Source: a virus
Lineage: Duplodnaviria > Heunggongvirae > Uroviricota > Caudoviricetes
DNA length: 20,298 nucleotides
Virus record (IMG/VR): IMGVR_UViG_2531839662_000026
Direction: 5' to 3' (one strand)
Under the pieces are notes generated by a model. The model searched no databases. It was not told the DNA's origin and was given only the letters and a program-made list of their open reading frames with translations. Below, in pieces: positions 2,733 to 20,298 of this stretch (position 1 is the stretch's first letter; each line of letters begins with the position of its first letter). Position numbers and translations under genes: made by a program.

Positions 2733-2775
2733 CCCATCAACCCCGCCATTTCGGTTCAAGGTTGATGGGTTTTTT
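2733..2775 (+). terminator. Rho-independent terminator candidate downstream of ybjL (cccatcaacc ... ggttgatggg + TTTTTT)
   Basis: 10-bp perfect inverted repeat with a ~17-nt loop followed by tttttt, read from sequence; lies in host DNA between the ybjL stop and the prophage boundary. Confidence 0.5.
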
Positions 2776-2833
2776 GTTGCCTGAAATTTAAGCTGTTTAA
2801 AATCATGATGTTAGAAACACTGTTTTTTAACGA

Positions 2834-3164: not shown

Positions 3165-4265
3165 TCATTCCATTTCGAAATCATCAATCCTCACTTCAAG
3201 CTCCAGACTGGTTGTAAAACCGTTATCCGGGCTGACGGTATGTGTCAGAGTCGTAATGGTCCATTCCGCATCATCTATCGGCTGTTTAAAACCACTGACC
3301 TTCACAGGCATTTCCGTGTAGAGATCTGCCCGCCCTTCTGCCAGTTGTAGCGAAAATGACGCAACGCCGCGTTGCAGGCGTTCCCACTGCATTTTCGCCG
3401 CTCGTTCGGCGTTGCTCCGGTTGGCATAAGTGCGATTAAGTACCAGCACGTTTTCATCCGTACCCACCAGGTAATCGCCCTGCTTCGCTTCTGGCTCTTT
3501 CTTCTGCTTCTTAGTTCTGCGCTTACGCTTCACCGTGGTGCTTTCTTTCTTCGCAGGTTCGCGGGTATGCAACCAGCTGGCAATTACGCCCGTGTAGGCT
3601 CCGCGATCTGCCAGGGTAAATCGGTGACTGTCGCCGTCCTTGCGTGTGATAGTGATCACTGGCAGAGGTTTACCAGTGGCGCTTTTGCCCTGCCCCTGCC
3701 GGATGAATAACAGATTGCCATTTTTCACCGACGCGATGGCACCGTACTGTCGCGCCAGCCGCATCAGAAAACTGCCGTCACTCTCATTAGTCTGGTCTAT
3801 ATGCTCCACGGGCTTATCCGACAGGTCTTTACCCAGTGCCATCTTCAGCTTGTGCCGCGCGGCTATTTCCTTCACCACTTCCCCGACGGTGGTCTTATGC
3901 CACGATTTTTCACGGCGGGTATTCAGCGTTTCCCGAAAATCAGCACTTCGCGCCCGGATAGTCAGGCGGTCCGGTGCGCCAGTGTGTTCAATCTCGTCCA
4001 CTGTGAATGCCCCTTTCGGGAAAAGCGGCTGCCCCTTCCAGCCCAGCGCCAGCGTAATAACCGCACCACGGCGCGGCAGCACGATTTTTCCGTCAGCGTC
4101 ATCCAGCTCCAGATCAAGCTGGTCCGCTTCAAAGCCCCGGTTATCCGTCAGCGTCAAACTCATCAGGCGGTTATCCAGCACAGTGGTGATATCCCTGCCC
4201 TCAATACTGATGCTGAATGCGGGAGTTTTGTTGCCTTTGTTAAGCAGTTCAGAGCTGAAATTCAC
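3165..4265 (-). CDS. D: Phage tail protein D (P2 gpD homologue)
   Basis: 366-aa ORF with ...LTDNRGFEADQLDLELDDADGKIVLPRRGAVITLALGW..., matching recalled P2 gpD; located between U' and ogr as in P2. Start probably GTG, overlapping the U stop. Confidence 0.85.
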   Translation of the reverse strand: MNFSSELLNKGNKTPAFSISIEGRDITTVLDNRLMSLTLTDNRGFEADQLDLELDDADGKIVLPRRGAVITLALGWKGQPLFPKGAFTVDEIEHTGAPDRLTIRARSADFRETLNTRREKSWHKTTVGEVVKEIAARHKLKMALGKDLSDKPVEHIDQTNESDGSFLMRLARQYGAIASVKNGNLLFIRQGQGKSATGKPLPVITITRKDGDSHRFTLADRGAYTGVIASWLHTREPAKKESTTVKRKRRTKKQKKEPEAKQGDYLVGTDENVLVLNRTYANRSNAERAAKMQWERLQRGVASFSLQLAEGRADLYTEMPVKVSGFKQPIDDAEWTITTLTHTVSPDNGFTTSLELEVRIDDFEME

Positions 4266-4660
4266 GACAGCAGCCCTCCCACCGTTTTACTGATATCGCT
4301 TAAGGCAGACGTTGCCGTGTCCTGCAGATTATTCAGTTGCGCACTGAGATCACCGAACATATCGGACAGGGATTCATCCACTCGTTTGAGCGACAGGGTG
4401 AACTCAATCCGGCGCGGCATACCGTCGCGGAAAAACTCCGTTTTAGTCTGATTCAGTCCCTCAATCACATACATGCCGTAAATCGTGCCGCTGCCTTCAA
4501 TCAGGGGCCATGCTTTCCCCTGTTCTGCCATCTGCTCCAGTGCCAGCAACGACAGCCTGCCGCCTGTTATTTCCGGCATAAGAACACCGGAAAGCGTCAG
4601 CATGTCGTTTTCCGGTCCCAGAAACTGCGTGGACGGACGTCGGTTTAACGCACCTCCGGT
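4262..4660 (-). pseudogene. U: 5'-truncated tail protein U gene (P2 gpU homologue), fused to an N fragment by an internal deletion
   Basis: ORF 4262-4603 (...GVLMPEITGGRLSLLALEQMAEQGKAWPLIEGSGTIYGMYVIEG...) resembles the C-terminal two-thirds of gpU. The same frame stays open upstream to about 4660 without a start codon, then meets a stop at the junction with N'. Confidence 0.6.
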
Positions 4661-4661
4661 C

Positions 4662-4760
4662 TACGGTGAACTTGCTGGACAGTTCTTCAACTGCCACACC
4701 GTTCAGACGCGCCAGTTGCTGCAGATAAGCGTTAAAAGCAAAGCGGGTATTCTTCTTCAT
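4662..4760 (-). pseudogene. N: Remnant of major capsid protein gene N (first ~33 codons only)
   Basis: ORF 4497-4760 begins MKKNTRFAFNAYLQQLARLNGVAVEELSSKFTV, which matches the recalled N-terminus of P2 gpN (MRQETRFKFNAYLSRVAELNGIDAGDVSKKFTV); similarity ends abruptly after FTV. Sits 16 nt downstream of O, as N does in P2. Confidence 0.6.
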
Positions 4761-4776: not shown

Positions 4777-5610
4777 TCAGCAATTGGTCAGAGTGTCAGC
4801 GGGGGCGTTACCGCCTGTTGCACGCTGGCGGTAGTCCTGGCGGCTGTCTTCATGGCTCAGCTTGTCCACCAGTTCGTTAAAGGCGGTCTGCTGTGCCTGC
4901 AGGGCAGTCTCCAGCTCAGACAGGCGTTCTTCCTGCTCAGACAGGGATTTTTCGGTGCGCGCACTCAGGTTCTGCTGCTCAGTGGCGACCAGTTCCACGG
5001 CCTTATGCACATCAGAGAACCGGGCGTCATCGGACTGCTCTTTTTTGGTGAACAGCGCCGTGACACGGGCAAACAGGGACGGTTTGTCATCCTGGATTTC
5101 TTCCAGTTCGATCACCGTTTCCTCTGCAGCGGTAAAAAGATTGGCGGGATTCTGCTTGCGGTTTGCCAGCGGGTTATGGGCTGCACTGGCGCTGAATGTC
5201 AGCATTTCAGTGCCCAGACTGGCAGGGTCATCAGTGGCAGCCAGGCCGACCAGGTAGGCTTTGCCCGTATCAGCGAACTTCGGGCTAACTTCCATAGATG
5301 TGAATAATTTCTGGCCTTTTTTCACCAGTTCCACCAGGGACTCCGTTGGCTCAACGTCGGCATACAGCGCCATCTTGCCTGCCAGCGGACCTTCCTTGAT
5401 TTCTTCAGCAAACAGCGCCGTCACCTTGCCGTAGCGGTTAAAGGTGCTGTCCGGCAGATAAGACTTGATGTGCTCAAGGTTAATCAGCGCGGTATACACC
5501 GCCGGGTTGTAGCTGGCTGCCATCTGTTCCAGCCATTCACGCTGGATTTCGCGTCCGTCGGTGGTGGCACCTTCCACCCCGATGCGAAAACGCTTTGCTT
5601 TCACTGTCAT
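4777..5610 (-). CDS. O: Capsid scaffolding protein (P2 gpO homologue)
   Basis: 277-aa ORF with FRIGVEGATTDGREI...INLEH...YLVGLAATDDPASLGTEML...KATGG...; matches recalled P2 gpO; divergent from P as in P2. Confidence 0.88.
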   Translation of the reverse strand: MTVKAKRFRIGVEGATTDGREIQREWLEQMAASYNPAVYTALINLEHIKSYLPDSTFNRYGKVTALFAEEIKEGPLAGKMALYADVEPTESLVELVKKGQKLFTSMEVSPKFADTGKAYLVGLAATDDPASLGTEMLTFSASAAHNPLANRKQNPANLFTAAEETVIELEEIQDDKPSLFARVTALFTKKEQSDDARFSDVHKAVELVATEQQNLSARTEKSLSEQEERLSELETALQAQQTAFNELVDKLSHEDSRQDYRQRATGGNAPADTLTNC

Positions 5611-5752: not shown

Positions 5753-7519
5753 ATGAACACCACACTGACACCCGCAGATCTCGATCCCCGTCGGCAGGCC
5801 ATGCTGCTGTACTTTCAGGGATACCGCGTAGCCCGCATTGCTGAAATGCTGGGCGAGAAAGTTGCAACCGTTCACAGCTGGAAAAAACGCGACAAGTGGG
5901 GTGACTATGGGCCGCTGGATCAGATGCAGCTCACCACCGCCGCACGCTACTGCCAGCTCATCATGAAGGAGCACAAAGAAGGGAAAGATTTCAAAGAGAT
6001 TGACCTGCTGGCGCGCCAGTCGGAGCGCCACGCGCGGATCGGCAAGTTTAACAATGGCGGCAACGAAGCCGACTTAAACCCTAACGTCGCCAACCGCAAT
6101 AAAGGCCCACGCCGTCAGCCGGAAAAGAATGTTTTCACCGATGAGCAGATTGAGAAGCTGGAAGAAATCTTCCATTCCTCCATGTTCAACTACCAGCGCC
6201 ACTGGTGGGAAGCCGGAAAAACCAACCGCATCCGCAACCTGCTGAAGTCACGCCAGATCGGCGCGACCTTTTACTTTGCCCGTGAAGCCCTGATTGACGC
6301 CCTGCTTACCGGACGTAACCAGATTTTCCTTTCCGCCAGCAAGGCACAGGCCCACGTCTTTAAGCAGTACATCATCGACTTCGCCAAAGAAGTGGGGGTG
6401 GAGTTGAAAGGCGATCCGATGGTGCTTCCTAACGGGGCCACGCTTTACTTCCTCGGCACCAATGCCCGCACGGCCCAGAGTTATCACGGCAACCTGTATC
6501 TGGATGAATATTTCTGGATACCGAAATTCCAGGAGCTGCGCAAAGTGGCTTCCGGTATGGCTATTCACAAAAAATGGCGACAAACCTATTTTTCCACGCC
6601 ATCCAGCCTGACACACAGTGCTTATCCGTTCTGGTCCGGTGCGCTGTTCAACCGTGGGCGCAACAAGGCCGACAAGGTGGACATCGACCTGTCCCACAGC
6701 AATCTGGCCCCCGGCCTGCTGTGCGCAGACGGGCAATACCGCCAGATAGTCACCGTGGAAGATGCGGTGCGCGGCGGCTGTAACCTGTTCGACCTTGACC
6801 AGTTGCGCATGGAGTACAGCCCGGACGAATACCAGAACCTGCTGATGTGCGAGTTTGTGGACGATCTCGCGTCCGTATTTCCGCTCAGCGAGCTGCAGGC
6901 GTGCATGGTGGACAGCTGGGAAGTCTGGACCGACTTTCATGCACTGGCTCTGCGCCCGTTTGGCTGGCGCGAAGTGTGGATCGGTTATGACCCGGCAAAA
7001 GGTACGCAAAACGGCGACAGCGCCGGATGCGTGGTGGTGGCACCGCCAGCCGTGCCTGGTGGTAAGTTCCGCATTCTTGAGCGTCACCAGTGGCGCGGGA
7101 TGGACTTCCGCGCCCAGGCTGACGCCATCAAAAAACTGACCGAACAGTACAACGTGACCTATATCGGTATCGACTCAACCGGCGTTGGTCACGGGGTTTA
7201 TGAGAACGTGAAAGCGTTCTTTCCTGCCGTCCGGGAGTTTGTCTACAACCCCAATGTTAAAAACGCCCTGGTACTCAAGGCCTACGACATTATCAGCCAC
7301 CGCCGTCTGGAGTTTGACGCCGGGCACACCGACATTGCGCAGTCATTTATGGCAATCCGTCGCGCTACCACTGCCAGTGGCAACCGCCCGACCTATGAAG
7401 CCAGCCGCAGCGAAGAAGCCAGCCATGCCGATCTGGCCTGGGCAACAATGCACGCACTGTTTAACGAACCGCTGCAGGGCGAGTCCGCCAATACCAGCAA
7501 TATTGTGGAGATTTTTTGA
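5753..7519 (+). CDS. P: Terminase large (ATPase) subunit (P2 gpP homologue)
   Basis: 588-aa ORF MNTTLTPADLDPRRQAMLLYFQGYRVARIAEMLG... matches recalled P2 gpP in sequence and length; stop overlaps the Q start (tgATG). Confidence 0.9.
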   Translation: MNTTLTPADLDPRRQAMLLYFQGYRVARIAEMLGEKVATVHSWKKRDKWGDYGPLDQMQLTTAARYCQLIMKEHKEGKDFKEIDLLARQSERHARIGKFNNGGNEADLNPNVANRNKGPRRQPEKNVFTDEQIEKLEEIFHSSMFNYQRHWWEAGKTNRIRNLLKSRQIGATFYFAREALIDALLTGRNQIFLSASKAQAHVFKQYIIDFAKEVGVELKGDPMVLPNGATLYFLGTNARTAQSYHGNLYLDEYFWIPKFQELRKVASGMAIHKKWRQTYFSTPSSLTHSAYPFWSGALFNRGRNKADKVDIDLSHSNLAPGLLCADGQYRQIVTVEDAVRGGCNLFDLDQLRMEYSPDEYQNLLMCEFVDDLASVFPLSELQACMVDSWEVWTDFHALALRPFGWREVWIGYDPAKGTQNGDSAGCVVVAPPAVPGGKFRILERHQWRGMDFRAQADAIKKLTEQYNVTYIGIDSTGVGHGVYENVKAFFPAVREFVYNPNVKNALVLKAYDIISHRRLEFDAGHTDIAQSFMAIRRATTASGNRPTYEASRSEEASHADLAWATMHALFNEPLQGESANTSNIVEIF

Positions 7520-8553
7520 TGGGAAAGAGTAAGAAGAACCGCGCTGCGTCGACGAAACAGATCCAGCATAAAAGCCAGACTTCAGCCGAAGCATTCAGCT
7601 TCGGTGATCCCGTTCCTGTTCTGGACCGCCGCGAACTGCTGGACTATGTGGAATGCGTACAGATGGAGTGTTGGTACGAGCCACCCGTAAGTTTTGACGG
7701 ACTGGCGCGCACCTTCCGGGCTGCCGTGCATCACAGTTCCCCGATTGCAGTAAAGTGCAACATTCTGACCAGTACCTATATCCCTCATCCGCTGCTCAGC
7801 CAACAGGCTTTTTCGCGTTTTGTACAGGACTATCTGGTATTTGGTAACGCCTACCTGGAGAAACGCACGAACCGATTCGGTGAAGTTATCGCCCTTGAGC
7901 CTGCGCTGGCAAAATACACCCGACGCGGGTTAGACCTGGATACCTACTGGTTTGTGCAATACGGTATGACAACCCAGCCGTATCAGTTCACGAAAGGCAG
8001 CATTTTTCAGCTGATGGAACCGGACATCAACCAGGAGATCTACGGCCTGCCCGGCTATCTTTCTGCCATCCCATCCGCTTTGCTCAACGAGTCCGCCACG
8101 CTGTTCCGCCGCAAGTATTACATTAACGGCAGTCATGCCGGCTTCATCATGTACATGACCGATGCCGCGCAGAACCAGGAGGATGTGAACAACCTCCGCA
8201 ACGCAATGAAAAGCGCCAAAGGTCCGGGTAACTTCCGCAATCTGTTTATGTACTCGCCTAATGGTAAAAAAGACGGACTTCAGATTATCCCGTTGTCAGA
8301 AGTCGCAGCGAAGGATGAATTTCTGAATATCAAAAATGTTAGTCGCGATGACATGATGGCGGCACACCGCGTGCCGCCACAGATGATGGGGATAATGCCA
8401 AATAATGTTGGGGGGTTTGGGGATGTGGAGAAGGCAAGTAATGTATTTGTACGCAATGAACTAATACCATTGCAAAAAAGATTTGAAGAGTTAAATGTTT
8501 GGTTAAAAGAAAAAGTGATACAGTTCGAAGAATATAAACTTCATTCAAATTAG
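7519..8553 (+). CDS. Q: Portal (capsid vertex) protein (P2 gpQ homologue)
   Basis: 344-aa ORF MGKSKKNRA...FSFGDPVPVLDRRELLDYVEC...LARTFRAAVHHSSPIAVKCNILTSTYIPHP... matches recalled P2 gpQ closely. Start set at the ATG at 7519. Confidence 0.9.
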   Translation: MGKSKKNRAASTKQIQHKSQTSAEAFSFGDPVPVLDRRELLDYVECVQMECWYEPPVSFDGLARTFRAAVHHSSPIAVKCNILTSTYIPHPLLSQQAFSRFVQDYLVFGNAYLEKRTNRFGEVIALEPALAKYTRRGLDLDTYWFVQYGMTTQPYQFTKGSIFQLMEPDINQEIYGLPGYLSAIPSALLNESATLFRRKYYINGSHAGFIMYMTDAAQNQEDVNNLRNAMKSAKGPGNFRNLFMYSPNGKKDGLQIIPLSEVAAKDEFLNIKNVSRDDMMAAHRVPPQMMGIMPNNVGGFGDVEKASNVFVRNELIPLQKRFEELNVWLKEKVIQFEEYKLHSN

Positions 8554-8585: not shown

Positions 8586-9836
8586 TTATCGCCATTTTAG
8601 ATAAAAAGCAAAAAATGGATCAGTAATATGCAACTTTCGGTCCTCCTTATCCCAATCTATTACAGGAGTTGAAGCTTCTTCCGTAGCAGCTATTTTAGCC
8701 ATTTTTTCTATAACACGAGTAACCTCATGAGCTTGTGGAGGAGCATCTTGCACCAGTTCGCGTATGGCTGATCTTAACTCCTCATACTGAATACTTTGCA
8801 TTCCTGGTTTCATATGTGACAATGCATATAATACAACTTTATATATATCTACTTCCTCACCACTTTTCAGTTTTCTAGGAATTCTGTCAGTTCGCTGATT
8901 AGGGCCACTAGCTAACTTATCAAATACTATTTTCCCAGTGGATTCTGCAACCTTTCTAAAAATATCATCATCTAAAGAATTAATAACTAACTTACTCGGC
9001 AAAGTTTCTTTAACATTATTTGCTAAGCATATAGCCTTGCAAAACTCTTGCATTAAATGAGGGCTTCCCAATGATTCATTGGCAATTTTATCAATTACTG
9101 AATCACTAACTTCCATGTTTAACAGAGGAAATCCCACTTTTGCTATTTGTTTTAGTTCATCCATTTCCCACGAAGGCATGGAAATATTTTCTAGCCGTCC
9201 GGTAATTTCTTTTTCAACTTTTACAGCATCATATCTTCGATGTGGAATGGCTATCAGTACAACTGGTACTCCATCAAAAACTAATGGTTTTATCGCTCTA
9301 ATAAAGTTACCTTGTAGGTCACGATCAAGGTAATGAAAGTCATCAATTATAAGACTAGACTTGGTTTGAGAGAGAACTTTTAGTGCAGAACTTTTTGCGG
9401 ATATCGTTCGCGATTTTTTATTACCATTTGACTTTCCATCCGTCTGAACTAAACCAGCCTCACCTGTACCTTTAACAACGAATGCACTTGCGGTCCCCGA
9501 TACCTTACCACTAACTGCAATAGCACTATTTTCTCCAGAATTAACTTCAATACTATGGTAGCCATTTAGTTTTTCTAATACCTGCTCCCAAATATCATCT
9601 TCAGTTGTAATACTCCCACCGTCAATCCATACAACATCATCGTCCATGACTGGGAATACCATTCTTGTAATTACAGTCTTACCAGACTTTGTTTGCCCAG
9701 TTAAAGTCACTAACTTACATAAATTATCTTTAGCACTCTCCAGTTTTCCATGAACCTCTCCTTCAGAGCGCTCAACATAAGTCAATTTCGGCATACCGCC
9801 AGGCACAAAAACTTGTGAAGCACGTTGTTTATCCAT
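8586..9836 (-). CDS. Cargo gene: 416-aa P-loop NTPase (Walker A GQTKSGKT, Walker B LIIDDFH), function unknown; candidate anti-phage or accessory ATPase
   Basis: Long ORF with an ATG start preceded by a GGGAAG Shine-Dalgarno-like sequence. Walker motifs are visible in the translation. AT-rich compared with neighbouring phage structural genes. No homologue recognised from memory. Confidence 0.7.
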   Translation of the reverse strand: MDKQRASQVFVPGGMPKLTYVERSEGEVHGKLESAKDNLCKLVTLTGQTKSGKTVITRMVFPVMDDDVVWIDGGSITTEDDIWEQVLEKLNGYHSIEVNSGENSAIAVSGKVSGTASAFVVKGTGEAGLVQTDGKSNGNKKSRTISAKSSALKVLSQTKSSLIIDDFHYLDRDLQGNFIRAIKPLVFDGVPVVLIAIPHRRYDAVKVEKEITGRLENISMPSWEMDELKQIAKVGFPLLNMEVSDSVIDKIANESLGSPHLMQEFCKAICLANNVKETLPSKLVINSLDDDIFRKVAESTGKIVFDKLASGPNQRTDRIPRKLKSGEEVDIYKVVLYALSHMKPGMQSIQYEELRSAIRELVQDAPPQAHEVTRVIEKMAKIAATEEASTPVIDWDKEDRKLHITDPFFAFYLKWR

Positions 9837-9873
9837 GAATACTTCCCAATTAACACAGCTCTAGTGAACTACG

Positions 9874-9902
9874 ATTCTAAAATAACATCTGAGCTTGGAC
9901 AA
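9874..9902 (-). promoter_or_regulatory. Candidate sigma70 promoter for the ATPase cargo gene (TTGTCC - 17 nt - TAGAAT on the - strand)
   Basis: Hexamers and spacing read from sequence, ~40-65 nt upstream of the ATG at 9836. Confidence 0.3.
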
Positions 9903-9944
9903 TTAACATTACATGATTTGAGTATTCAAAGCCACAAGCGCGCG

Positions 9945-9963
9945 CTCGTATCCCCGCCACGCC
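9945..9963 (-). other. Candidate cos (cohesive end) site: - strand reads GGCGTGGCGGGGATACGAG
   Basis: First 13 nt match my recollection of the 186 cos end (GGCGTGGCGGGGAAAGCAT; P2 is GGCGAGGCGGGGAAAGCAC). Lies in a GC-rich non-coding island between the Q-side and A-side gene blocks, where cos is expected. Confidence 0.4.
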
Positions 9964-10123
9964 TGCCCGCTTTATGTAGCGGTTTTCATGCGCCTGCATG
10001 ACATAAGCAAAATCCCGCCACTCCTGGCGGGCCTCAGCTAAAACGATCCTCAAACGATCATGCGGATTCATGCGGCATAGACATGCACAATCTCCAAAGC
10101 GGGCATCGAGACTTTTTGGAAAC

Positions 10124-10735
10124 CTACGTAACCACAGTTAATGTGTGCATCCTGTCTCGAATTGCATCACACGTCTCATCAAAAAGCTTGGTGATGGTTG
10201 TATGGTTCAACTCCGCCTCTTTCCAATAATTTTGCCCGTCAAATTCTGGATCGCTATGCTTAAACGATATTGACTCTGTAAGGCATTCCTTCCGGAAACG
10301 GTCCAAGATTATATAAACCTCTGGTGAGATGAACGGTTTGTTAGATTCAACACTTGTAACAAAAGTGTTAAATGCATCAAAAAAAACTTTCAACCTTCTA
10401 AATTTTCTCTCTTCAAATGGTTCGTTGGGGTCAACATGATCCAGCGCAGGCCTCAGCTTAAGCACGCTTTCTCTGGTTTCAAACATCGAATTCCAAATGA
10501 GACTATATGCTGATAACTCCTTATCAAAATACGCTTTCGTTACATAAACAGAATTGTCTAACTTAGCCTTTATTCTTTCATTAGTTGCACTCAGTTGTGA
10601 TTGAAATTCAGCAATATCTTTGTTTAGCCGCGACTTATATCTTTCTAAATAAACTTTCCCGATCCAAACAAATATGCCAGATGCAACAAAAGACACCCCA
10701 CCCAACGAAGCCAGAACTTTAAAGACTAAATCCAT
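10124..10735 (-). CDS. Cargo gene: 203-aa protein with one N-terminal transmembrane helix, function unknown
   Basis: ATG at 10735 with a GGTGG Shine-Dalgarno-like sequence upstream. N-terminus VLASLGGVSFVASGIFVWIG is hydrophobic. AT-rich. A TATAAT -10 hexamer lies about 20-25 nt upstream of the ATG. Confidence 0.6.
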   Translation of the reverse strand: MDLVFKVLASLGGVSFVASGIFVWIGKVYLERYKSRLNKDIAEFQSQLSATNERIKAKLDNSVYVTKAYFDKELSAYSLIWNSMFETRESVLKLRPALDHVDPNEPFEERKFRRLKVFFDAFNTFVTSVESNKPFISPEVYIILDRFRKECLTESISFKHSDPEFDGQNYWKEAELNHTTITKLFDETCDAIRDRMHTLTVVT

Positions 10736-16868: not shown

Positions 16869-17465
16869 ATGTCAACATCAAAGTACCCAAGTGAGATCAA
16901 AATAAATCCCAATAAAGGTGGTAAGGCTGCGATTGAGCGATTAGTCGAAGCTTATGGCTTTACGACACGACAGGCTTTAGCTGATCACTTGGAAGTATCA
17001 AAAAGCACTCTGGCGAACAGGTATTTGCGGGATACGTTTCCTGCAGACTGGATAATCCAATGTGCTCTTGAAACAGGAACCTCACTGAAATGGTTAACCA
17101 CCGGGCAAGGACTTAAGCAAAGCTCGCTGACAGTAGCCACAGAAGAGCTTCCCAAGTTTCGCCTTACCGCAGGCAAAATGATTGAAGATGGTTCATATGT
17201 ATTCGATTCATCATTTCTTCCTGCAAATCTTTCATCACCAATTGTTATTCAGGATGGGCTTGTCACATACATTTGTGATCAAAAATTTTCTGAAGTACTT
17301 GATGGACACTGGTTAATCAACATCGACGGAACCTATTCCATTCGAAAAATCACAAAGCTTCCAAAAGGTATGATTAAAATTACAACTACAGAGAATAGCT
17401 TTGAATGTGCATTTTCTGATATTGAAGTGGTTGCTTGTATAAGAAGTACAATAGTTTCAAATTGA
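16869..17465 (+). CDS. cI: CI-like immunity repressor (198 aa)
   Basis: ATG start. N-terminal HTH-like segment (RQALADHLEVSKSTLANRYL), plus position and orientation (divergent from apl, same strand as int), fit the 186 CI family. Confidence 0.8.
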   Translation: MSTSKYPSEIKINPNKGGKAAIERLVEAYGFTTRQALADHLEVSKSTLANRYLRDTFPADWIIQCALETGTSLKWLTTGQGLKQSSLTVATEELPKFRLTAGKMIEDGSYVFDSSFLPANLSSPIVIQDGLVTYICDQKFSEVLDGHWLINIDGTYSIRKITKLPKGMIKITTTENSFECAFSDIEVVACIRSTIVSN

Positions 17466-17485
17466 TATAGTAAAAGGATTTAAAA

Positions 17486-19162
17486 ATGAATTCATTTTCC
17501 ATCGTTATATTATTATTAGCATTTCTCGCCCCTGTTCTAGCTATAATATTATTTAAGCAAAGTAAAGAACACAAAGCCGCCATAGATAACCTGACGGCTA
17601 ACAACATAGCCCTTTCCAGCCAACTGAGTGAAAATCAAGAAAAGTTAGCACAGACTGCACGAGATCTATCAGAGCTTGAAGGGCGAGCAGCACCATTATG
17701 GCAATACGAAGAATTGCACAGCGCAGTGATGGAGGCAGAGAATAAGATAAAAAATGCAGACTCAATAGCTAGGCAAAAAATAGAAGAAGCCCAAATAAAG
17801 GCAGCTAAGACAGTAAACGAAGCAAGTTATCAAGCTCAGATAACAATAAGCAACGCTAATAGCGAAGCTATAGCAATCACCAAAGACGCTCGCGATGCAC
17901 GCCTGAAAGCCAAAGAACGTCTTGATAATGCCAACAGTAAAGCAAATGAGCTGATCTCAAATGCTAATGACAACGCAGTAAAAATTATTACCGATGCAGA
18001 AGAAAGAGCAAAAGAGATTGCTGGTTCAGCATATGAAGCTAAAGAGTTTGCAGAAAAATATGAAGCAGTTGCCAAATCAATGAAAAATAAAATTGAAGGT
18101 TATGGCGATGAATGGATCATCCCTAACCGTAGTGTACTTGATGAATTGGCAGAAAATTATGAGTTTACAGATGCAGGCAAGGAATTACAAAAAGCCAGGG
18201 AGTTAACAAAATCATTAATAAAAACTAATAAAGCAGCTTCGTGTGATTATGTTGAGCAAAACAGGCGTAATACTGCTATCAACTTTGTTTTGGATGCCTT
18301 CAATGGAAGAGTTGACAGTATTTTATCAAAAGTCAAACACAACAATTTTGGAAAACTTTCCCAAGAAATAAAAGATGCATTTCAACTTGTAAATTATAAT
18401 GGCTCTGCTTTTAGATCCGCAAAAATAAGTGACATCTATCTTCAGGCACGACTCAACGAGCTAAAATGGGGAGTTGCAGTTAATGAAATTATGCTCGAAG
18501 AAAAAGAGGAGCAAAGAAGGATTAAAGAACAGCTTCGTGAAGAGGAAAGAGCTCGTAGAGAGTATGAAAAAGCGATAAAAGAAGCCGAAAAAGAAGAAAA
18601 AGCTATTCAGCAAGCTATAAATAAAGCAACGAAAGAGCTTATGCTTGCAAATGAAGAACAACGCTTAGCTTTAGAGCAAAAAATAGCTGAACTACAGTTA
18701 AAATATGAAGAAGCTGAAGCTAAAAACCAACGAGCTATTTCTATGGCTCAACAAACTAGATCAGGCCATGTTTATATAATTAGCAATATTGGCTCATTTG
18801 GCGAAGATGTATATAAAATTGGAATGACACGCCGCCTTGAACCACTTGATCGTGTTCGTGAACTTGGGGATGCTAGTGTTCCTTTTTCGTTCGATGTTCA
18901 TGCGATGATTTATAGTGATGATGCACCGTCATTAGAAAATCATCTGCATAAAGTCTTCAACGAAAAGCAGGTCAATAAAATTAACTCACGAAAAGAGTTT
19001 TTTAACGTAAATATTAAAGAAATTAAATCGGTTATTGAAGATATGAACATCAATGCCCACTGGACAATGTTTGCAGAGGCGAAAGAATATAGAGAGTCAC
19101 TAGCTATTGAGCAGGAACGCAAAGCAGCCACTTCCGCCAACGATGAACTACATGTTGCTTAG
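17486..19162 (+). CDS. Cargo gene: 558-aa protein with an N-terminal transmembrane helix, a long coiled coil and a C-terminal T5orf172/GIY-YIG-like domain; candidate lysogen-expressed defence or exclusion factor
   Basis: ATG with an AAGGA RBS 8 nt upstream, 20 bp after the cI stop. Hydrophobic N-terminus FSIVILLLAFLAPVLAIILF. Strongly A/E/K/Q-rich middle with repeated NANS/NAND motifs. C-terminus GHVYIISNIGSFGEDVYKIGMTRRLEPLDRVRELGDASVPFSFDVH...EFFNVNIKEIKSVIEDMN fits the T5orf172 (MUG113) pattern as I recall it. Markedly AT-rich. Confidence 0.8.
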   Translation: MNSFSIVILLLAFLAPVLAIILFKQSKEHKAAIDNLTANNIALSSQLSENQEKLAQTARDLSELEGRAAPLWQYEELHSAVMEAENKIKNADSIARQKIEEAQIKAAKTVNEASYQAQITISNANSEAIAITKDARDARLKAKERLDNANSKANELISNANDNAVKIITDAEERAKEIAGSAYEAKEFAEKYEAVAKSMKNKIEGYGDEWIIPNRSVLDELAENYEFTDAGKELQKARELTKSLIKTNKAASCDYVEQNRRNTAINFVLDAFNGRVDSILSKVKHNNFGKLSQEIKDAFQLVNYNGSAFRSAKISDIYLQARLNELKWGVAVNEIMLEEKEEQRRIKEQLREEERARREYEKAIKEAEKEEKAIQQAINKATKELMLANEEQRLALEQKIAELQLKYEEAEAKNQRAISMAQQTRSGHVYIISNIGSFGEDVYKIGMTRRLEPLDRVRELGDASVPFSFDVHAMIYSDDAPSLENHLHKVFNEKQVNKINSRKEFFNVNIKEIKSVIEDMNINAHWTMFAEAKEYRESLAIEQERKAATSANDELHVA

Positions 19163-19220
19163 CAATGTATGTTTCATAGCAATCACACATTGATTACTGG
19201 TTGTATATACAGTTAAATTT

Positions 19221-19245
19221 AGCCCTCTGATATGAGGGCTTTTTT
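19221..19245 (+). terminator. Rho-independent terminator candidate (agccctc-tgatat-gagggct + TTTTT) ending one base before the int ATG
   Basis: 7-bp perfect stem followed by ttttt, read from sequence; the int start codon follows at 19246. Confidence 0.5.
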
Positions 19246-20298
19246 ATGGCAGTACGAAAACTCACCACAGGAAAATGGCTTTGCGAATGTTACCCCGCCG
19301 GACGTAGTGGACGTCGTGTGCGTAAACAATTCGCCACCAAAGGCGAAGCACTGGCTTTTGAGCGTCACACGATGGAAGAAACCGAAGCAAAGCCCTGGCT
19401 AGGTGAATCAGTGGATCGTCGAACACTGAAAGACGTGGTTGAGCTATGGTTCAAACTACATGGTAAATCACTGACAGCTGGGCAGCATGTCTATGACAAA
19501 TTGCTGCTGATGGTTGACGCTCTGGGCAATCCCCTTGCAACTGATCTAACCTCTAAAATGTTTGCCCACTATCGAGATAAACGCCTGACAGGTGAGATCT
19601 ACTTCAGCGAGAAATGGAAGAAAGGAGCAAGCCCGGTCACCATTAACCTGGAGCAAAGCTATCTAAGTAGTGTTTTTAGCGAACTATCCCGCCTGGGCGA
19701 ATGGTCGTATCCGAACCCACTGGAGAACATGCGAAAATTCACCATCGCAGAAAAAGAGATGGCATGGCTTACCCATGAGCAGATTGTTGAATTACTGGCT
19801 GATTGCAAACGTCAGGACCCAATTCTGGCACTGGTAGTTAAGATATGCTTAAGCACAGGCGCACGCTGGCGAGAAGCCATAAATCTTACTCGTTCACAGG
19901 TGACCAAATACCGAATTACCTTTGTAAGAACGAAGGGGAAGAAAAATAGAAGCATCCCTATCAGTAAAGAGCTTTACGAAGAGATCATGGCGCTTGATGG
20001 GTTCAATTTCTTCACAGACTGCTATTTTCAATTTTTATCCGTGATGGAAAAAACGTCTATCGTGCTCCCTCGCGGTCAACTCACACACGTTCTGCGCCAT
20101 ACGTTTGCGGCGCACTTCATGATGTCGGGTGGAAACATTCTGGCCTTACAAAAAATTCTCGGACACCACGATATAAAAATGACTATGCGTTACGCACATC
20201 TGGCACCGGATCATCTGGAAACGGCGCTCCGTTTCAATCCTCTGGCAACGCTGCCAAGTGGCGACAAAGTGGCGGCAGCGGTTGGCATTACCCCGTAA
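19246..20298 (+). CDS. int: Tyrosine integrase, P2/186 family (350 aa)
   Basis: Translation aligns along its length with recalled P2 Int (e.g. CLSTGARW.EA..L....V....ITF..TK, HVLRHTFA.HFMM.GG.I..LQ.ILGH..I..TM.YAH.AP). Its 3' end contains the att core copy; stop at 20296-20298. Confidence 0.9.
   Translation: MAVRKLTTGKWLCECYPAGRSGRRVRKQFATKGEALAFERHTMEETEAKPWLGESVDRRTLKDVVELWFKLHGKSLTAGQHVYDKLLLMVDALGNPLATDLTSKMFAHYRDKRLTGEIYFSEKWKKGASPVTINLEQSYLSSVFSELSRLGEWSYPNPLENMRKFTIAEKEMAWLTHEQIVELLADCKRQDPILALVVKICLSTGARWREAINLTRSQVTKYRITFVRTKGKKNRSIPISKELYEEIMALDGFNFFTDCYFQFLSVMEKTSIVLPRGQLTHVLRHTFAAHFMMSGGNILALQKILGHHDIKMTMRYAHLAPDHLETALRFNPLATLPSGDKVAAAVGITP
20259..20280. repeat. attL core candidate (tggcgacaaagtggcggcagcg) inside the 3' end of int
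   Basis: Matches 21 of 22 bases to 2834-2855. Confidence 0.6.

What the first reader, a model, noticed from the sequence alone, without database searches (positions are those of the whole stretch)
4604..4661. Deletion junction fusing the capsid gene N start to the tail gene U 3' part
The first ~33 codons of N run straight into the U reading frame in a different frame. Every gene that P2-like phages carry between N and U (small terminase, head completion, lysis, baseplate, fibres, sheath, tube, tape measure) is missing, roughly 13 kb compared with an intact 186 or P2. The prophage is therefore cryptic, yet it keeps regulation, replication, integrase and all three cargo genes, which is consistent with host retention of useful cargo.
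Basis: partly seen in the sequence, partly recalled or inferred. Interest (0 to 1): 0.5.

Follow-up and report, generated by a model that had tools for sequence, protein, structure and literature searches.

The report
Deletion scar in a defective prophage
This is the scar of a 16-kb internal deletion that removed the capsid, lysis and tail genes of a P2/186-like prophage in E. coli UMNF18; the deletion is ordinary prophage decay, but its tail-gene end falls on a nucleotide where at least five other, unrelated rearrangements of related prophages also end.

Summary
The window is E. coli UMNF18 chromosome, carrying a 186/P2-like prophage between ybjL and rcdA. Capsid gene N stops after 101 nt (window 4760-4660). 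Tail gene U resumes at its nt 101 (4647-4262). Everything between is gone: 16,294 bp versus the closest intact relative (E. coli F1022), 14,751 bp versus phage 4LV2017 and about 18.2 kb on the P2 map, not about 13 kb.

N does not run straight into U. Twelve nucleotides (4659-4648) are a patch of tail-completion gene S, joined through GA to N and TA to U (16-nt exact match). This is microhomology-mediated illegitimate recombination.

RefSeq already flags both remnants as pseudogenes. Only 1 of 5,426 complete E. coli genomes has this junction. All other prophage genes are intact, including PD-Lambda-1 and a PDC-S59-like ATPase. The event therefore looks recent, and cargo retention says nothing yet about selection.

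One thing is unexpected. The U-side break (U nt 102|103) is shared by five other rearrangements with different partners. A second U position (nt 169-171) is shared by four more. The cause is unknown; the phage invertase and the gpA nickase do not fit. As a deletion this is ordinary. The recurrent breakpoints deserve a census.

The parts
2765..2778 (.). attR core (ATGGGTTTTTTGTT). The second copy (attL) lies 75 nt beyond the window end in the UMNF18 chromosome.
   Evidence: 14-nt direct repeat flanking the prophage in L137. It is the reverse complement of the attL/attR annotated in phage 4LV2017.
2856..3074 (-). ogr/delta-type late-gene activator, intact
   Evidence: Pfam Ogr_Delta 7e-22. PGAP CDS of 72 aa.
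3165..4265 (-). tail gene D, intact (366 aa)
   Evidence: Pfam Phage_GPD 2.5e-27. Same length as in intact relatives.
4262..4647 (-). remnant of tail gene U (U nt 101-486; codons 1-34 lost). The internal ATG at 4603 opens a 113-aa ORF.
   Evidence: blastn to 4LV2017, KP12 and F1022. Pfam GpU positions 45-120 of 120. PGAP pseudogene 'missing N-terminus'.
4646..4647 (-). TA microhomology at the S-to-U join. This is also the recurrent breakpoint 'site A' (U nt 101-102; break 102|103).
   Evidence: Three-way alignment. Five other rearrangements with different left partners join U at the same nucleotide.
4648..4659 (-). 12-nt patch copied from tail-completion gene S (sense strand CCGGAGGTGCGT)
   Evidence: With the flanking microhomologies it forms a 16-nt exact match, GACCGGAGGTGCGTTA, to gene S of F1022 (L138 15226-15241). 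The match is in the same orientation and colinear between N and U. About 0.001 exact 12-mer matches are expected by chance in 16.3 kb.
4660..4661 (-). GA microhomology at the N-to-S join
   Evidence: Three-way alignment.
4660..4760 (-). remnant of major capsid gene N (nt 1-101; codons 1-33 plus 2 nt)
   Evidence: blastn. The translation is identical to the N-terminus of 4LV2017 gpN through residue 33. PGAP pseudogene 'missing C-terminus'.
4497..4760 (-). 87-aa chimeric ORF (N codons 1-33, 4 codons of patch, then U read out of frame); probably meaningless
   Evidence: ORF list and translation. No Pfam hit. No gene with this product is on record in the public gene index.
4777..5610 (-). scaffold gene O, intact; its late promoter now drives N'-patch-U'-D
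   Evidence: Pfam Phage_GPO 3e-113. Operon structure taken from the P2 annotation; co-transcription is inferred.
5753..8553 (+). large terminase P and portal Q, intact
   Evidence: ORFs of 588 and 345 aa. PGAP products.
8586..10735 (-). cos-adjacent cargo: a 416-aa PDC-S59-like AAA ATPase (8586-9836), a cos-like block (about 9937-10086) and a 203-aa protein of unknown function (10124-10735)
   Evidence: PADLOC PDC-S59 1.2e-31. The 150-nt block is conserved in all relatives. ATCCCCGCCACGCC at 9950-9963 is the reverse complement of the start of the 186 cohesive end as I recall it. The location matches the P2 defence hotspot between gpA and gpQ (PMC9122126).
11704..14124 (-). replication endonuclease A, intact
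   Evidence: ORF. PGAP 'replication endonuclease'. The ori nick region aligned to P2 lies near window 12096.
16869..20298 (+). 186-type CI repressor (16869-17465), PD-Lambda-1 defence gene (17486-19162) and integrase (19246-20298), all intact
   Evidence: Pfam Phage_CI_repr and CI_C. PADLOC PD-Lambda-1 1e-119. Pfam T5orf172/DUF4041. PGAP.

Best explanation
Window 4646-4661 is the scar of an internal loss of about 16.3 kb in a 186/P2-like prophage of E. coli UMNF18.

Shown:
- Capsid gene N is cut after nt 101.
- It is joined through a shared GA to 12 nt of tail-completion gene S.
- That patch is joined through a shared TA to tail gene U at nt 103.
- Nothing else of the 16.3 kb between N and U remains: the rest of N, then M, L, X, holin, lysozyme, spanins, R, S, V, W, J, I, fibre genes, invertase, sheath, tube, E/E' and tape measure.

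Inferred mechanism: RecA-independent, microhomology-mediated illegitimate recombination. This was either one event with two template switches (N to S to U) or two successive deletions that left a 12-nt island.

Inferred consequence: the element cannot build heads or tails, cannot cut cos (no small terminase) and cannot lyse. It keeps immunity, SOS-type control, replication, integrase, both att cores, cos and three cargo genes, two of which match defence or candidate-defence models. The O late promoter now reads O, the N' stub, and probably U' and D.

The event looks recent and clonal.

The U-side break sits on a nucleotide-precise recurrent breakpoint of this phage family. The cause of that recurrence is not established.
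For: **Arms of the deletion.** They were mapped on four intact phages and on the closest E. coli relative.

**The S patch.** There is a 16-nt exact, colinear, same-strand match of patch plus microhomologies to gene S of F1022, and the same S allele occurs in other close relatives. About 0.001 exact 12-mer matches are expected by chance.

**Microhomology.** 21 of the 23 junctions mapped in 13 related defective prophages have at least 2 nt of microhomology, against 16% expected at random (my tally).

**Independent copies.** A second assembly is identical, and 6 of the 24 contigs read carry this arrangement.

**Existing annotation.** PGAP independently annotates N' and U' as adjacent partial pseudogenes and nothing else in the prophage as a pseudogene.

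**Rarity.** Only 1 of 5,426 complete E. coli genomes has this junction.

**Recurrent breakpoint.** Rearrangements in L007 (inverted T), L008 (Q), L011 (T), L012 (T) and L014 (3' of the invertase gene) all join U at GGGTA|AACCGACG. One break position, 102|103, is compatible with all six. They come from at least four prophage lineages and two attachment sites. The L012 type recurs in the complete genome KSC64 and in an IMG/VR contig, and the L014 type recurs in a second metagenome.
Against: - No single-step intermediate (N-S or S-U junction alone) was found in 5,426 complete genomes. One complex event and two sequential deletions therefore cannot be told apart.
- RecA independence and template switching are inferred from junction anatomy only.
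- The 2-nt overlaps are short. Any one of them alone would not be significant.
- My first reading of the filler, as two 11-mers from lysB and FI (nominal chance 0.15-0.4%), turned out to be wrong once a closer relative was found. This shows how easily short matches mislead.
Confidence: 0.88

Rival explanations
1. A site-specific nick or break at the U site started the event. An unidentified enzyme or structure cuts (or exposes) the DNA at TA|AACCG, in the loop of the small hairpin GTCGG-GTAAA-CCGAC. That fixed end is then joined by microhomology to whatever end or template is available. The window's deletion would be one outcome of a recurrent process that knocks out P2-like prophages.
For: - Six different partners share one nucleotide position in U. 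They are 6 of the 9 distinct arrangements that carry the 113-aa U' ORF.
- A second position, U nt 169-171 (TTA|TG|CCGGAG), is shared by four more partners: invertase, O, J and E.
- One case is a reciprocal inversion that keeps AA/TT at both junctions.
- The hairpin appears in both the MFE and the centroid fold.
- A fixed end with variable partners is the classic signature of nick-site-driven illegitimate recombination, as at M13 and pC194 origins (Michel and Ehrlich 1986, from memory).
- TA..CCG occurs in the first 250 nt of U only at the two hot spots.
Against: - No enzyme is identified.
- The stem is only 5 bp, and about half of U alleles have a mismatch in it.
- The TA..CCG motif was read off the two sites after the fact. 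They share only 6 of 16 positions around the break.
- No in-frame fusion at site A appears among the 120 best U homologues, although about three would be expected.
- Both sets of cases were found by asking for U-containing proteins, so nothing is known about how hot other genes are. gpL may have its own preferred endpoint.
- Hot spots of illegitimate recombination are known from lambda bio transducing phages (from memory), so a hot spot need not mean a dedicated enzyme.
Confidence: 0.35
2. The phage's own Hin/Gin-type DNA invertase recombined a quasi-site in U (GTAAACC-GA resembles a half site) with other quasi-sites. This would give deletions between direct sites and inversions between inverted sites.
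For: - Intact relatives carry the invertase next to the fibre genes.
- Many junctions have exactly 2 nt of overlap.
- One inversion is reciprocal.
- U has GTCGGGTAAACC, which matches 7 of 12 positions of the native half site TTCTCCCAAACC.
Against: - In the native register the crossover would lie after AAACC. Every junction crosses 3-5 nt earlier, and none of the intact left partners contains AAACC (AACACG, AACCGG, AAAGCG, AAATCG, ATCCCT, ACGCAG).
- There is no second half site on the other side of either hot spot.
- Site B has no resemblance to the native site at all.
Confidence: 0.03
3. The rolling-circle initiator gpA nicked a pseudo-origin in U and transferred the covalently held 5' end to a foreign 3' end.
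For: - The pattern of a fixed end with variable partners fits, and so does the strand polarity: the fixed part is the 5' side of the sense strand, the strand nicked at ori in P2.
- gpA is intact in the window.
Against: - The ori nick region (P2 GCGCCTC|GGAGTCCTGTCAATAACTGT; window GCGCCCCTTGGACTCGTGGCAATAACTGT) has no similarity to either U site.
- No second copy of the 16-mer around site A exists within 3 mismatches anywhere in a complete relative.
Confidence: 0.03
4. The shortened element is maintained because it is useful. Either the host keeps it as a fixed defence island, or it is a helper-dependent, satellite-like element that a co-resident P2/186-like phage can package.
For: - Cargo genes match PD-Lambda-1 and PDC-S59.
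- The 416-aa protein has the same accession in the intact F1022 prophage.
- Defective P2-like elements with conserved defence genes are a described class (PMC13586616).
- att, int, the cos-like site, replication, ogr, P, Q and O are all kept.
- att-to-att length is about 17.6 kb, so a dimer would fill a P2-size head (inference).
Against: - The element shows no decay other than the deletion and is rare (1 of 5,426 complete genomes), so its age gives selection no time to show.
- The N' and U' stubs and the 12-nt S patch are debris, not design.
- No P4-type hijacking genes (sid, psu, delta, alpha) are annotated.
- No defence phenotype or mobilisation has been tested.
Confidence: 0.2
5. Assembly artefact: reads from the two ends of an intact prophage were wrongly joined.
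For: UMNF18 is an older shotgun assembly (record title).
Against: - An independent Logan assembly is identical over 14.6 kb, and five further contigs have the same gene neighbourhood.
- A junction with 2-nt overlaps and a 12-nt patch cannot arise from k-mer overlap.
- Contigs run through the junction without a competing path.
Confidence: 0.02

Closest known systems
Intact 186/P2-like phages of Enterobacteriaceae: the E. coli F1022 prophage (NZ_OY754357.1), Klebsiella phages KP12_3, Kp4845-2 and 4LV2017, and P2 and 186 themselves
   Same: Same gene order and 95-99% DNA identity on both sides of the scar. F1022 has the same attachment site (ybjL-rcdA) and the same cos-adjacent cargo.
   Different: The window lacks the 16.3 kb from N codon 34 to U codon 35. 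It carries PD-Lambda-1 between CI and int, as KP12_3 does but F1022 does not.
Defective P2-like prophages with conserved defence genes (Nucleic Acids Res 2026, PMC13586616), and the P2 cos-adjacent defence hotspot (Cell Host Microbe 2022, PMC9122126)
   Same: Core morphogenesis genes are lost or pseudogenised, while the defence loci stay like those of intact elements. The cargo sits between gpA and gpQ next to cos.
   Different: That work reports no preferred pattern of core-gene loss and no breakpoint anatomy. Here the scar is resolved to the nucleotide and one end is recurrent.
Microhomology-mediated illegitimate recombination and template switching (short-homology-dependent illegitimate recombination in E. 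coli, alternative end joining, MMBIR-type events)
   Same: Overlaps of 2-5 nt at every junction, a short templated patch from DNA lying between the two ends, and both deletions and inversions in sister elements.
   Different: One partner is fixed to the nucleotide in many independent events. The general models do not predict this without a local break, stall or exposed single strand.
Nick-site hot spots of illegitimate recombination at rolling-circle origins (M13 gene II, pC194; from memory)
   Same: One endpoint is fixed and the other variable, with little homology.
   Different: The U sites are not the phage origin and do not resemble it. No nickase is identified.

Membership tests
P2/186-like (Peduoviridae) prophage | Divergent Q-P / O-N late module, D-ogr at the right end, and an early region with CI, CII, A and int, in P2 order | tested here: met
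   95-99% blastn identity to four phages and to the F1022 prophage. Pfam hits for GPO, GpU, GPD, Ogr_Delta and CI. PGAP products agree.
P2/186-like (Peduoviridae) prophage | Flanking att repeats and a cos site | tested here: inconclusive
   The att core, 14 nt on both sides, is met. The P2 cos 19-mer is absent. A 14-nt match to the 186 cohesive end rests on my memory of that sequence.
P2/186-like (Peduoviridae) prophage | Complete virion and lysis modules (a functional phage) | tested here: not met
   16,294 bp from N nt 102 to U nt 100 are absent.
Defective prophage retaining defence cargo | Core genes lost or pseudogenised while the defence genes match those of intact elements | tested here: met
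   N' and U' are the only pseudogenes. The 416-aa cargo protein has the same accession in UMNF18 and in intact F1022. PADLOC gives PD-Lambda-1 at 1e-119.
Defective prophage retaining defence cargo | The cargo protects the host, and retention is selected | not testable with these tools
   No phenotype data. The element shows no other decay, so its age is uninformative.
Microhomology-mediated illegitimate recombination / template switching | Short identity (1-5 nt) shared by both parents at each junction | tested here: met
   GA and TA in the window. 21 of 23 junctions in sister elements have at least 2 nt.
Microhomology-mediated illegitimate recombination / template switching | Templated insertion copied from nearby sequence | tested here: met
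   The 12-nt patch, 16 nt with overlaps, is identical to gene S. It lies between the two ends on the same strand.
Microhomology-mediated illegitimate recombination / template switching | Independence from RecA; replication-coupled origin | not testable with these tools
   Needs genetics.
Hin/Gin/Cin invertase recombination at quasi-sites | Crossover at the central dinucleotide between two AAACC-type half sites | tested here: not met
   The native sites are TTCTCC(A/C)AAACC-AA-.... Junctions cross 3-5 nt upstream of that register, and the partners lack AAACC.
HUH initiator (gpA) action at a pseudo-origin | Sequence resembling the ori nick site | tested here: not met
   No similarity between the ori region and the U sites. 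No second copy of the U 16-mer within 3 mismatches.
P4-like satellite or PICI | Hijacking genes (sid, psu, delta, alpha primase) and own regulation | tested here: not met
   None are annotated by PGAP in the element. Every gene has a P2/186 counterpart or is cargo.

The most novel reading that the evidence does not exclude
Tail gene U of P2/186-like prophages contains two nucleotide-precise fragile sites: nt 102|103 in the loop of GTCGG-GTAAA-CCGAC, and nt 169-171 just 5' of CCGGAG. A specific nick, stall or exposed single strand at these sites repeatedly seeds large deletions and inversions that disarm the prophage. The UMNF18 scar would be one product of this process. If true, it would be a sequence-programmed route from active prophage to harmless defence island.
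Probability: 0.3. Interest if true: 0.65.

Novelty: new member of a known kind. Interest (0 to 1): 0.3.

Why it matters
As a single deletion it matters little. It tells an annotator that this UMNF18 prophage is dead as a virus but still carries PD-Lambda-1 and a candidate defence ATPase.

The wider point is the recurrence. At least ten independent rearrangements in related prophages end at two exact nucleotides of one gene. If that holds up in a full census, prophage inactivation in E. coli is not random decay. It is channelled by local DNA features or by an enzyme. Such a finding would bear on how quickly lysogens convert dangerous prophages into fixed defence islands, and it would give a tractable hot spot for studying illegitimate recombination in vivo.

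Tried and rejected
1. **Filler from lysB and FI.** I first explained the 12-nt filler as two overlapping 11-mers from lysB and sheath gene FI of Klebsiella phages. Random fillers were tiled that well in only 0.15-0.4% of trials. I rejected this when the closer E. coli relative F1022 gave one continuous 16-nt match in gene S.
2. **Klebsiella host.** I assumed this from the best phage hits. The exact YbjL protein and a 100% BLAST match show E. coli UMNF18.
3. **Invertase quasi-site recombination.** Rejected on register, using the phage's own crossover sites.
4. **gpA pseudo-origin.** No similarity to the ori nick region.
5. **Searches for the junction elsewhere.** There were no hits in species-representative genomes. 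Two junction-derived probes (an FI–U test join and the patch with the start of U) found nothing in IMG/VR. The 87-aa chimeric ORF is not in the gene index.
6. **U-site pattern in representative genomes.** None.
7. **Single-step intermediates (N-S or S-U alone).** None in complete E. coli genomes.
8. **L008 and L011 junction types in complete genomes.** Not found. The L008 probe instead picked up a different Q'-T'-U arrangement in 17 genomes, including APEC O78 and ACN001.
9. **P2 cos 19-mer.** Absent from the window.
10. **Literature.** Searches for the P2 A-protein cleavage site and for prophage deletion hot spots gave nothing directly relevant.
11. **Shared motif TA..CCG at both hot spots.** Noted, but it was derived after the fact and is statistically weak.

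Full report
**What the window is.**
The window is E. coli, not Klebsiella. The host protein at 935-2620 is exactly YbjL of E. coli. A 401-nt probe across the finding matches the chromosome of porcine ETEC strain UMNF18 (NZ_AGTD01000001.1) at 100%.

The window holds a 186/P2-like prophage inserted between ybjL and rcdA, read in the opposite orientation to the P2 map. Running from ybjL, the order is:
- attR core (2765-2778), ogr, D, a U remnant, an N remnant, O;
- then P and Q on the other strand;
- a cos-adjacent cargo block;
- A, a Dam-type methylase, CII, CI, a 558-aa cargo gene and int.

The window ends at the int stop codon. The second att core lies 75 nt further on.

**Checking the observation.**
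blastn against Klebsiella phage 4LV2017 gives two arms. Window 2665-4645 matches 33540-31560, and window 4660-8487 matches 16808-12981, so 14,751 bp of that phage are missing.

Phage KP12_3 and an E. coli circular record extend the U arm to 4647.

The closest relative is the prophage of E. coli F1022. It sits at the same chromosomal site, carries the same 416-aa and 203-aa cargo, and is 98.7% identical on both arms. Window 942-4647 matches L138 1-3706, and window 4660-13998 matches L138 20001-29349, so 16,294 bp are missing. On the P2 map the same interval (N codon 34 to U codon 35) is about 18.2 kb.

What remains of each gene:
- N keeps nt 1-101, that is codons 1-33 plus GA.
- U keeps nt 101-486, so codons 1-34 are lost.
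- The N frame reads on out of frame to a stop at 4497 (87 aa).
- The U frame re-opens at the ATG at 4603 (113 aa, Pfam GpU positions 45-120).

RefSeq's PGAP already marks the two pieces as adjacent partial pseudogenes (window 4262-4648 and 4659-4760). It marks nothing else in the prophage as a pseudogene.

**Anatomy of the scar.**
Twelve nucleotides (4659-4648; sense strand CCGGAGGTGCGT) match neither N nor U.

I first tiled them with two 11-mers found in lysB and FI of Klebsiella phages. That reading was wrong. In F1022 the 12 nt, plus two nt on each side, form one 16-nt exact match, GACCGGAGGTGCGTTA. It lies in tail-completion gene S (L138 15226-15241), on the same strand and between N and U. 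The same S allele is present in several other close relatives. An exact 12-mer is expected about 0.001 times by chance in 16.3 kb.

The junction therefore reads: N ...CACCGTA[GA], then CCGGAGGTGCGT from S, then [TA]AACCGACG... of U. The two gaps are 4,759 bp and 11,521 bp.

This anatomy is that of microhomology-mediated illegitimate recombination. It could be one event with two template switches, or two successive deletions. No single-step intermediate exists among 5,426 complete E. coli genomes, so the two cannot be separated.

**How common the scar is.**
- Only UMNF18 among 5,426 complete E. coli genomes has it.
- In the larger gene index, the 113-aa U' ORF is recorded in 161 blocks. Of the 24 longest contigs read, six have the window's gene neighbourhood.
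- One of these, from SRR8989465, is 100% identical to the window over 14,603 bp.

The scar is real, clonal and apparently young.

**What the element can still do (inference).**
It has lost the capsid protein, small terminase, head completion, holin, lysozyme, spanins and every tail gene except D and part of U. It cannot form particles or lyse.

It keeps CI, CII, a DinI/Tum-like gene, A, int, both att cores, a cos-like block, P, Q, O, D and ogr. Excision and replication after SOS induction remain plausible. By analogy with the P2 operon map, the O promoter should now transcribe O, the N' stub, U' and D.

**Cargo.**
- The 558-aa protein between CI and int matches PD-Lambda-1 (PADLOC 1e-119; Pfam DUF4041 and T5orf172).
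- The 416-aa protein matches candidate system PDC-S59 (1e-31; weak AAA_22).
- The 203-aa protein matches nothing meaningful.

The latter two lie in the cos-adjacent defence hotspot of P2-like phages described by Rousset et al. (PMC9122126).

Defective P2-like elements that keep near-identical defence genes are a published class, and whether they are domesticated is still an open question (PMC13586616). It is not supported by this locus itself, because nothing else has had time to decay.

**The unexpected part: recurrent breakpoints.**
The look-up of the 113-aa U' ORF returned ten different gene neighbourhoods.

Aligning the 200 nt upstream of the ORF showed that five arrangements with different left partners join U at exactly the nucleotide used in the window...|AAACCGACGTCC:

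| Locus | Left partner |
|---|---|
| L007 | inverted piece of T |
| L008 | portal gene Q |
| L011 | T |
| L012 | T, at another position |
| L014 | the 3' flank of the invertase gene |

- Each has 2-3 nt of microhomology (AA, TAA, AAA, AAA, TA).
- One break position, between U nt 102 and 103, fits all six cases.
- Three other arrangements (L009, L010, L013) break elsewhere in the same 144-nt stretch. L006 is an intact phage with a nonsense codon in U.
- So 6 of 9 distinct rearrangements share one nucleotide.

The cases are not one clone. Over 1,483 nt of U plus D:
- L005 and L011 are identical;
- L008 differs at 5 positions and L012 at 11;
- L014 differs at 13 and sits at the ssrA attachment site;
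- L007 differs at 68.

The L012 type recurs in the complete genome KSC64 and in an IMG/VR contig. The L014 type recurs in a second metagenome. L007 is a reciprocal inversion that keeps AA/TT at both ends.

Among 121 unselected copies of this U allele in IMG/VR and metagenomes, 118 are intact at the site, two carry such junctions, and one has a 1-nt deletion in the adjacent G run.

**A second recurrent position.**
A protein search with U' found many in-frame fusions of U to other phage genes. Four of them join U at the same nucleotide (nt 169-171, TTA|TG|CCGGAG), each with TG microhomology. Their left partners are the invertase, O, J and E.

Overall, 21 of the 23 junctions I mapped in these elements have at least 2 nt of microhomology. 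Random expectation is 16%.

**What causes the recurrence.**
I could not establish this.
- Site A lies in the 5-nt loop of a small hairpin, GTCGG-GTAAA-CCGAC, which appears in both the MFE and the centroid fold. The stem is only 5 bp, and about half of the alleles have a mismatch in it.
- The phage invertase is excluded. Its native sites are TTCTCC(A/C)AAACC-AA-.... The U sequence GTAAACC-GA would place the crossover 3-5 nt to the right of where every junction crosses, and the partners lack AAACC.
- The gpA nickase is not supported. The ori nick region has no likeness to the U sites.
- Both hot spots read TA..CCG, and those are the only two such motifs in the first 250 nt of U. The motif was derived after the fact and is weak.

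A pattern of one fixed end with variable partners is what nick-site-driven illegitimate recombination gives at M13 and pC194 origins. Hot spots are also classical in lambda bio formation (both from memory). The phenomenon may therefore be a local fragile site rather than a new enzyme.

A caveat on scope applies. All cases were found by asking for U, so I cannot say that U is hotter than other genes. I can only say that, within U, endpoints pile up on two nucleotides.

**Verdict.**
The finding is correct in substance and ordinary in kind. It is a recent, clonal, microhomology-mediated internal deletion that turned a 186/P2-like prophage into a defective element, and public annotation already flags it as pseudogenes.

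The corrections are the size, the 12-nt S patch and the host. The selection claim is untested. The recurrent U breakpoints are the one thing worth following up.

Noticed in passing
window 4646-4647 (U nt 101-102); loci L007, L008, L011, L012, L014 at 9957/9958; L088; L134: Six rearrangements with different left partners (S, inverted T, Q, T, T, invertase 3' flank) join U at the same nucleotide, GGGTA|AACCGACG. The position lies in the loop of a small hairpin. The cases come from at least four prophage lineages and two attachment sites.
   Followed up: partly
U nt 169-171 (window about 4577-4579); loci L139, L140, L141, L142: A second recurrent breakpoint. In-frame fusions of the invertase, O, J and E genes to U all cross at TTA|TG|CCGGAG, each with TG microhomology.
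   Followed up: partly
window 17486-19162 (+): The 558-aa gene between the CI repressor and integrase matches the PD-Lambda-1 defence system (PADLOC 1e-119; DUF4041 plus a T5orf172/MUG113 nuclease-like domain). It is present in KP12_3 but absent from the F1022 relative.
   Followed up: partly
window 8586-9836 (-) and 10124-10735 (-): The cos-adjacent cargo has two parts. One is a 416-aa AAA ATPase matching candidate defence family PDC-S59. The other is a 203-aa protein with no meaningful family hit, which PGAP mislabels 'valyl-tRNA synthetase'.
   Followed up: partly
window 9937-10086, especially 9950-9963: A 150-nt block is conserved in all relatives between the variable cargo genes. It contains ATCCCCGCCACGCC, the reverse complement of the start of the 186 cohesive end as I remember it, so it is probably cos. 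The P2 cos 19-mer is absent.
   Followed up: partly
L007 9113-9959; L013 5052-6371: Two reciprocal inversions occur inside sister prophages. One lies between T and the U hot spot and keeps AA/TT at both ends. The other lies in Q/P, between 5-bp inverted repeats TATCC/GGATA.
   Followed up: partly
L006 about 9917; L090 upstream of 4494: There are small lesions in U of otherwise intact phages: a CAG-to-TAG nonsense codon (codon 21), and a 1-nt deletion in the GGG run immediately next to hot spot A.
   Followed up: no
E. coli APEC O78, ACN001 and 15 other complete genomes (hits H166-H177): A different defective arrangement, with a portal fragment joined to a tape-measure fragment followed by an intact U start, is fixed in 17 complete genomes, many from poultry.
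   Followed up: no
proteins P0019 and P0049 (gpL-U fusions): Two independent fusions leave gpL at the same codon (…LKQVA|L) but enter U at different places. This hints that other genes have preferred endpoints too.
   Followed up: no
L138 29427-30248: The F1022 relative has an extra 822-nt gene between A and the methylase, and a shorter CI region without PD-Lambda-1. This shows modular swaps in the early region between otherwise 98.7% identical prophages.
   Followed up: no
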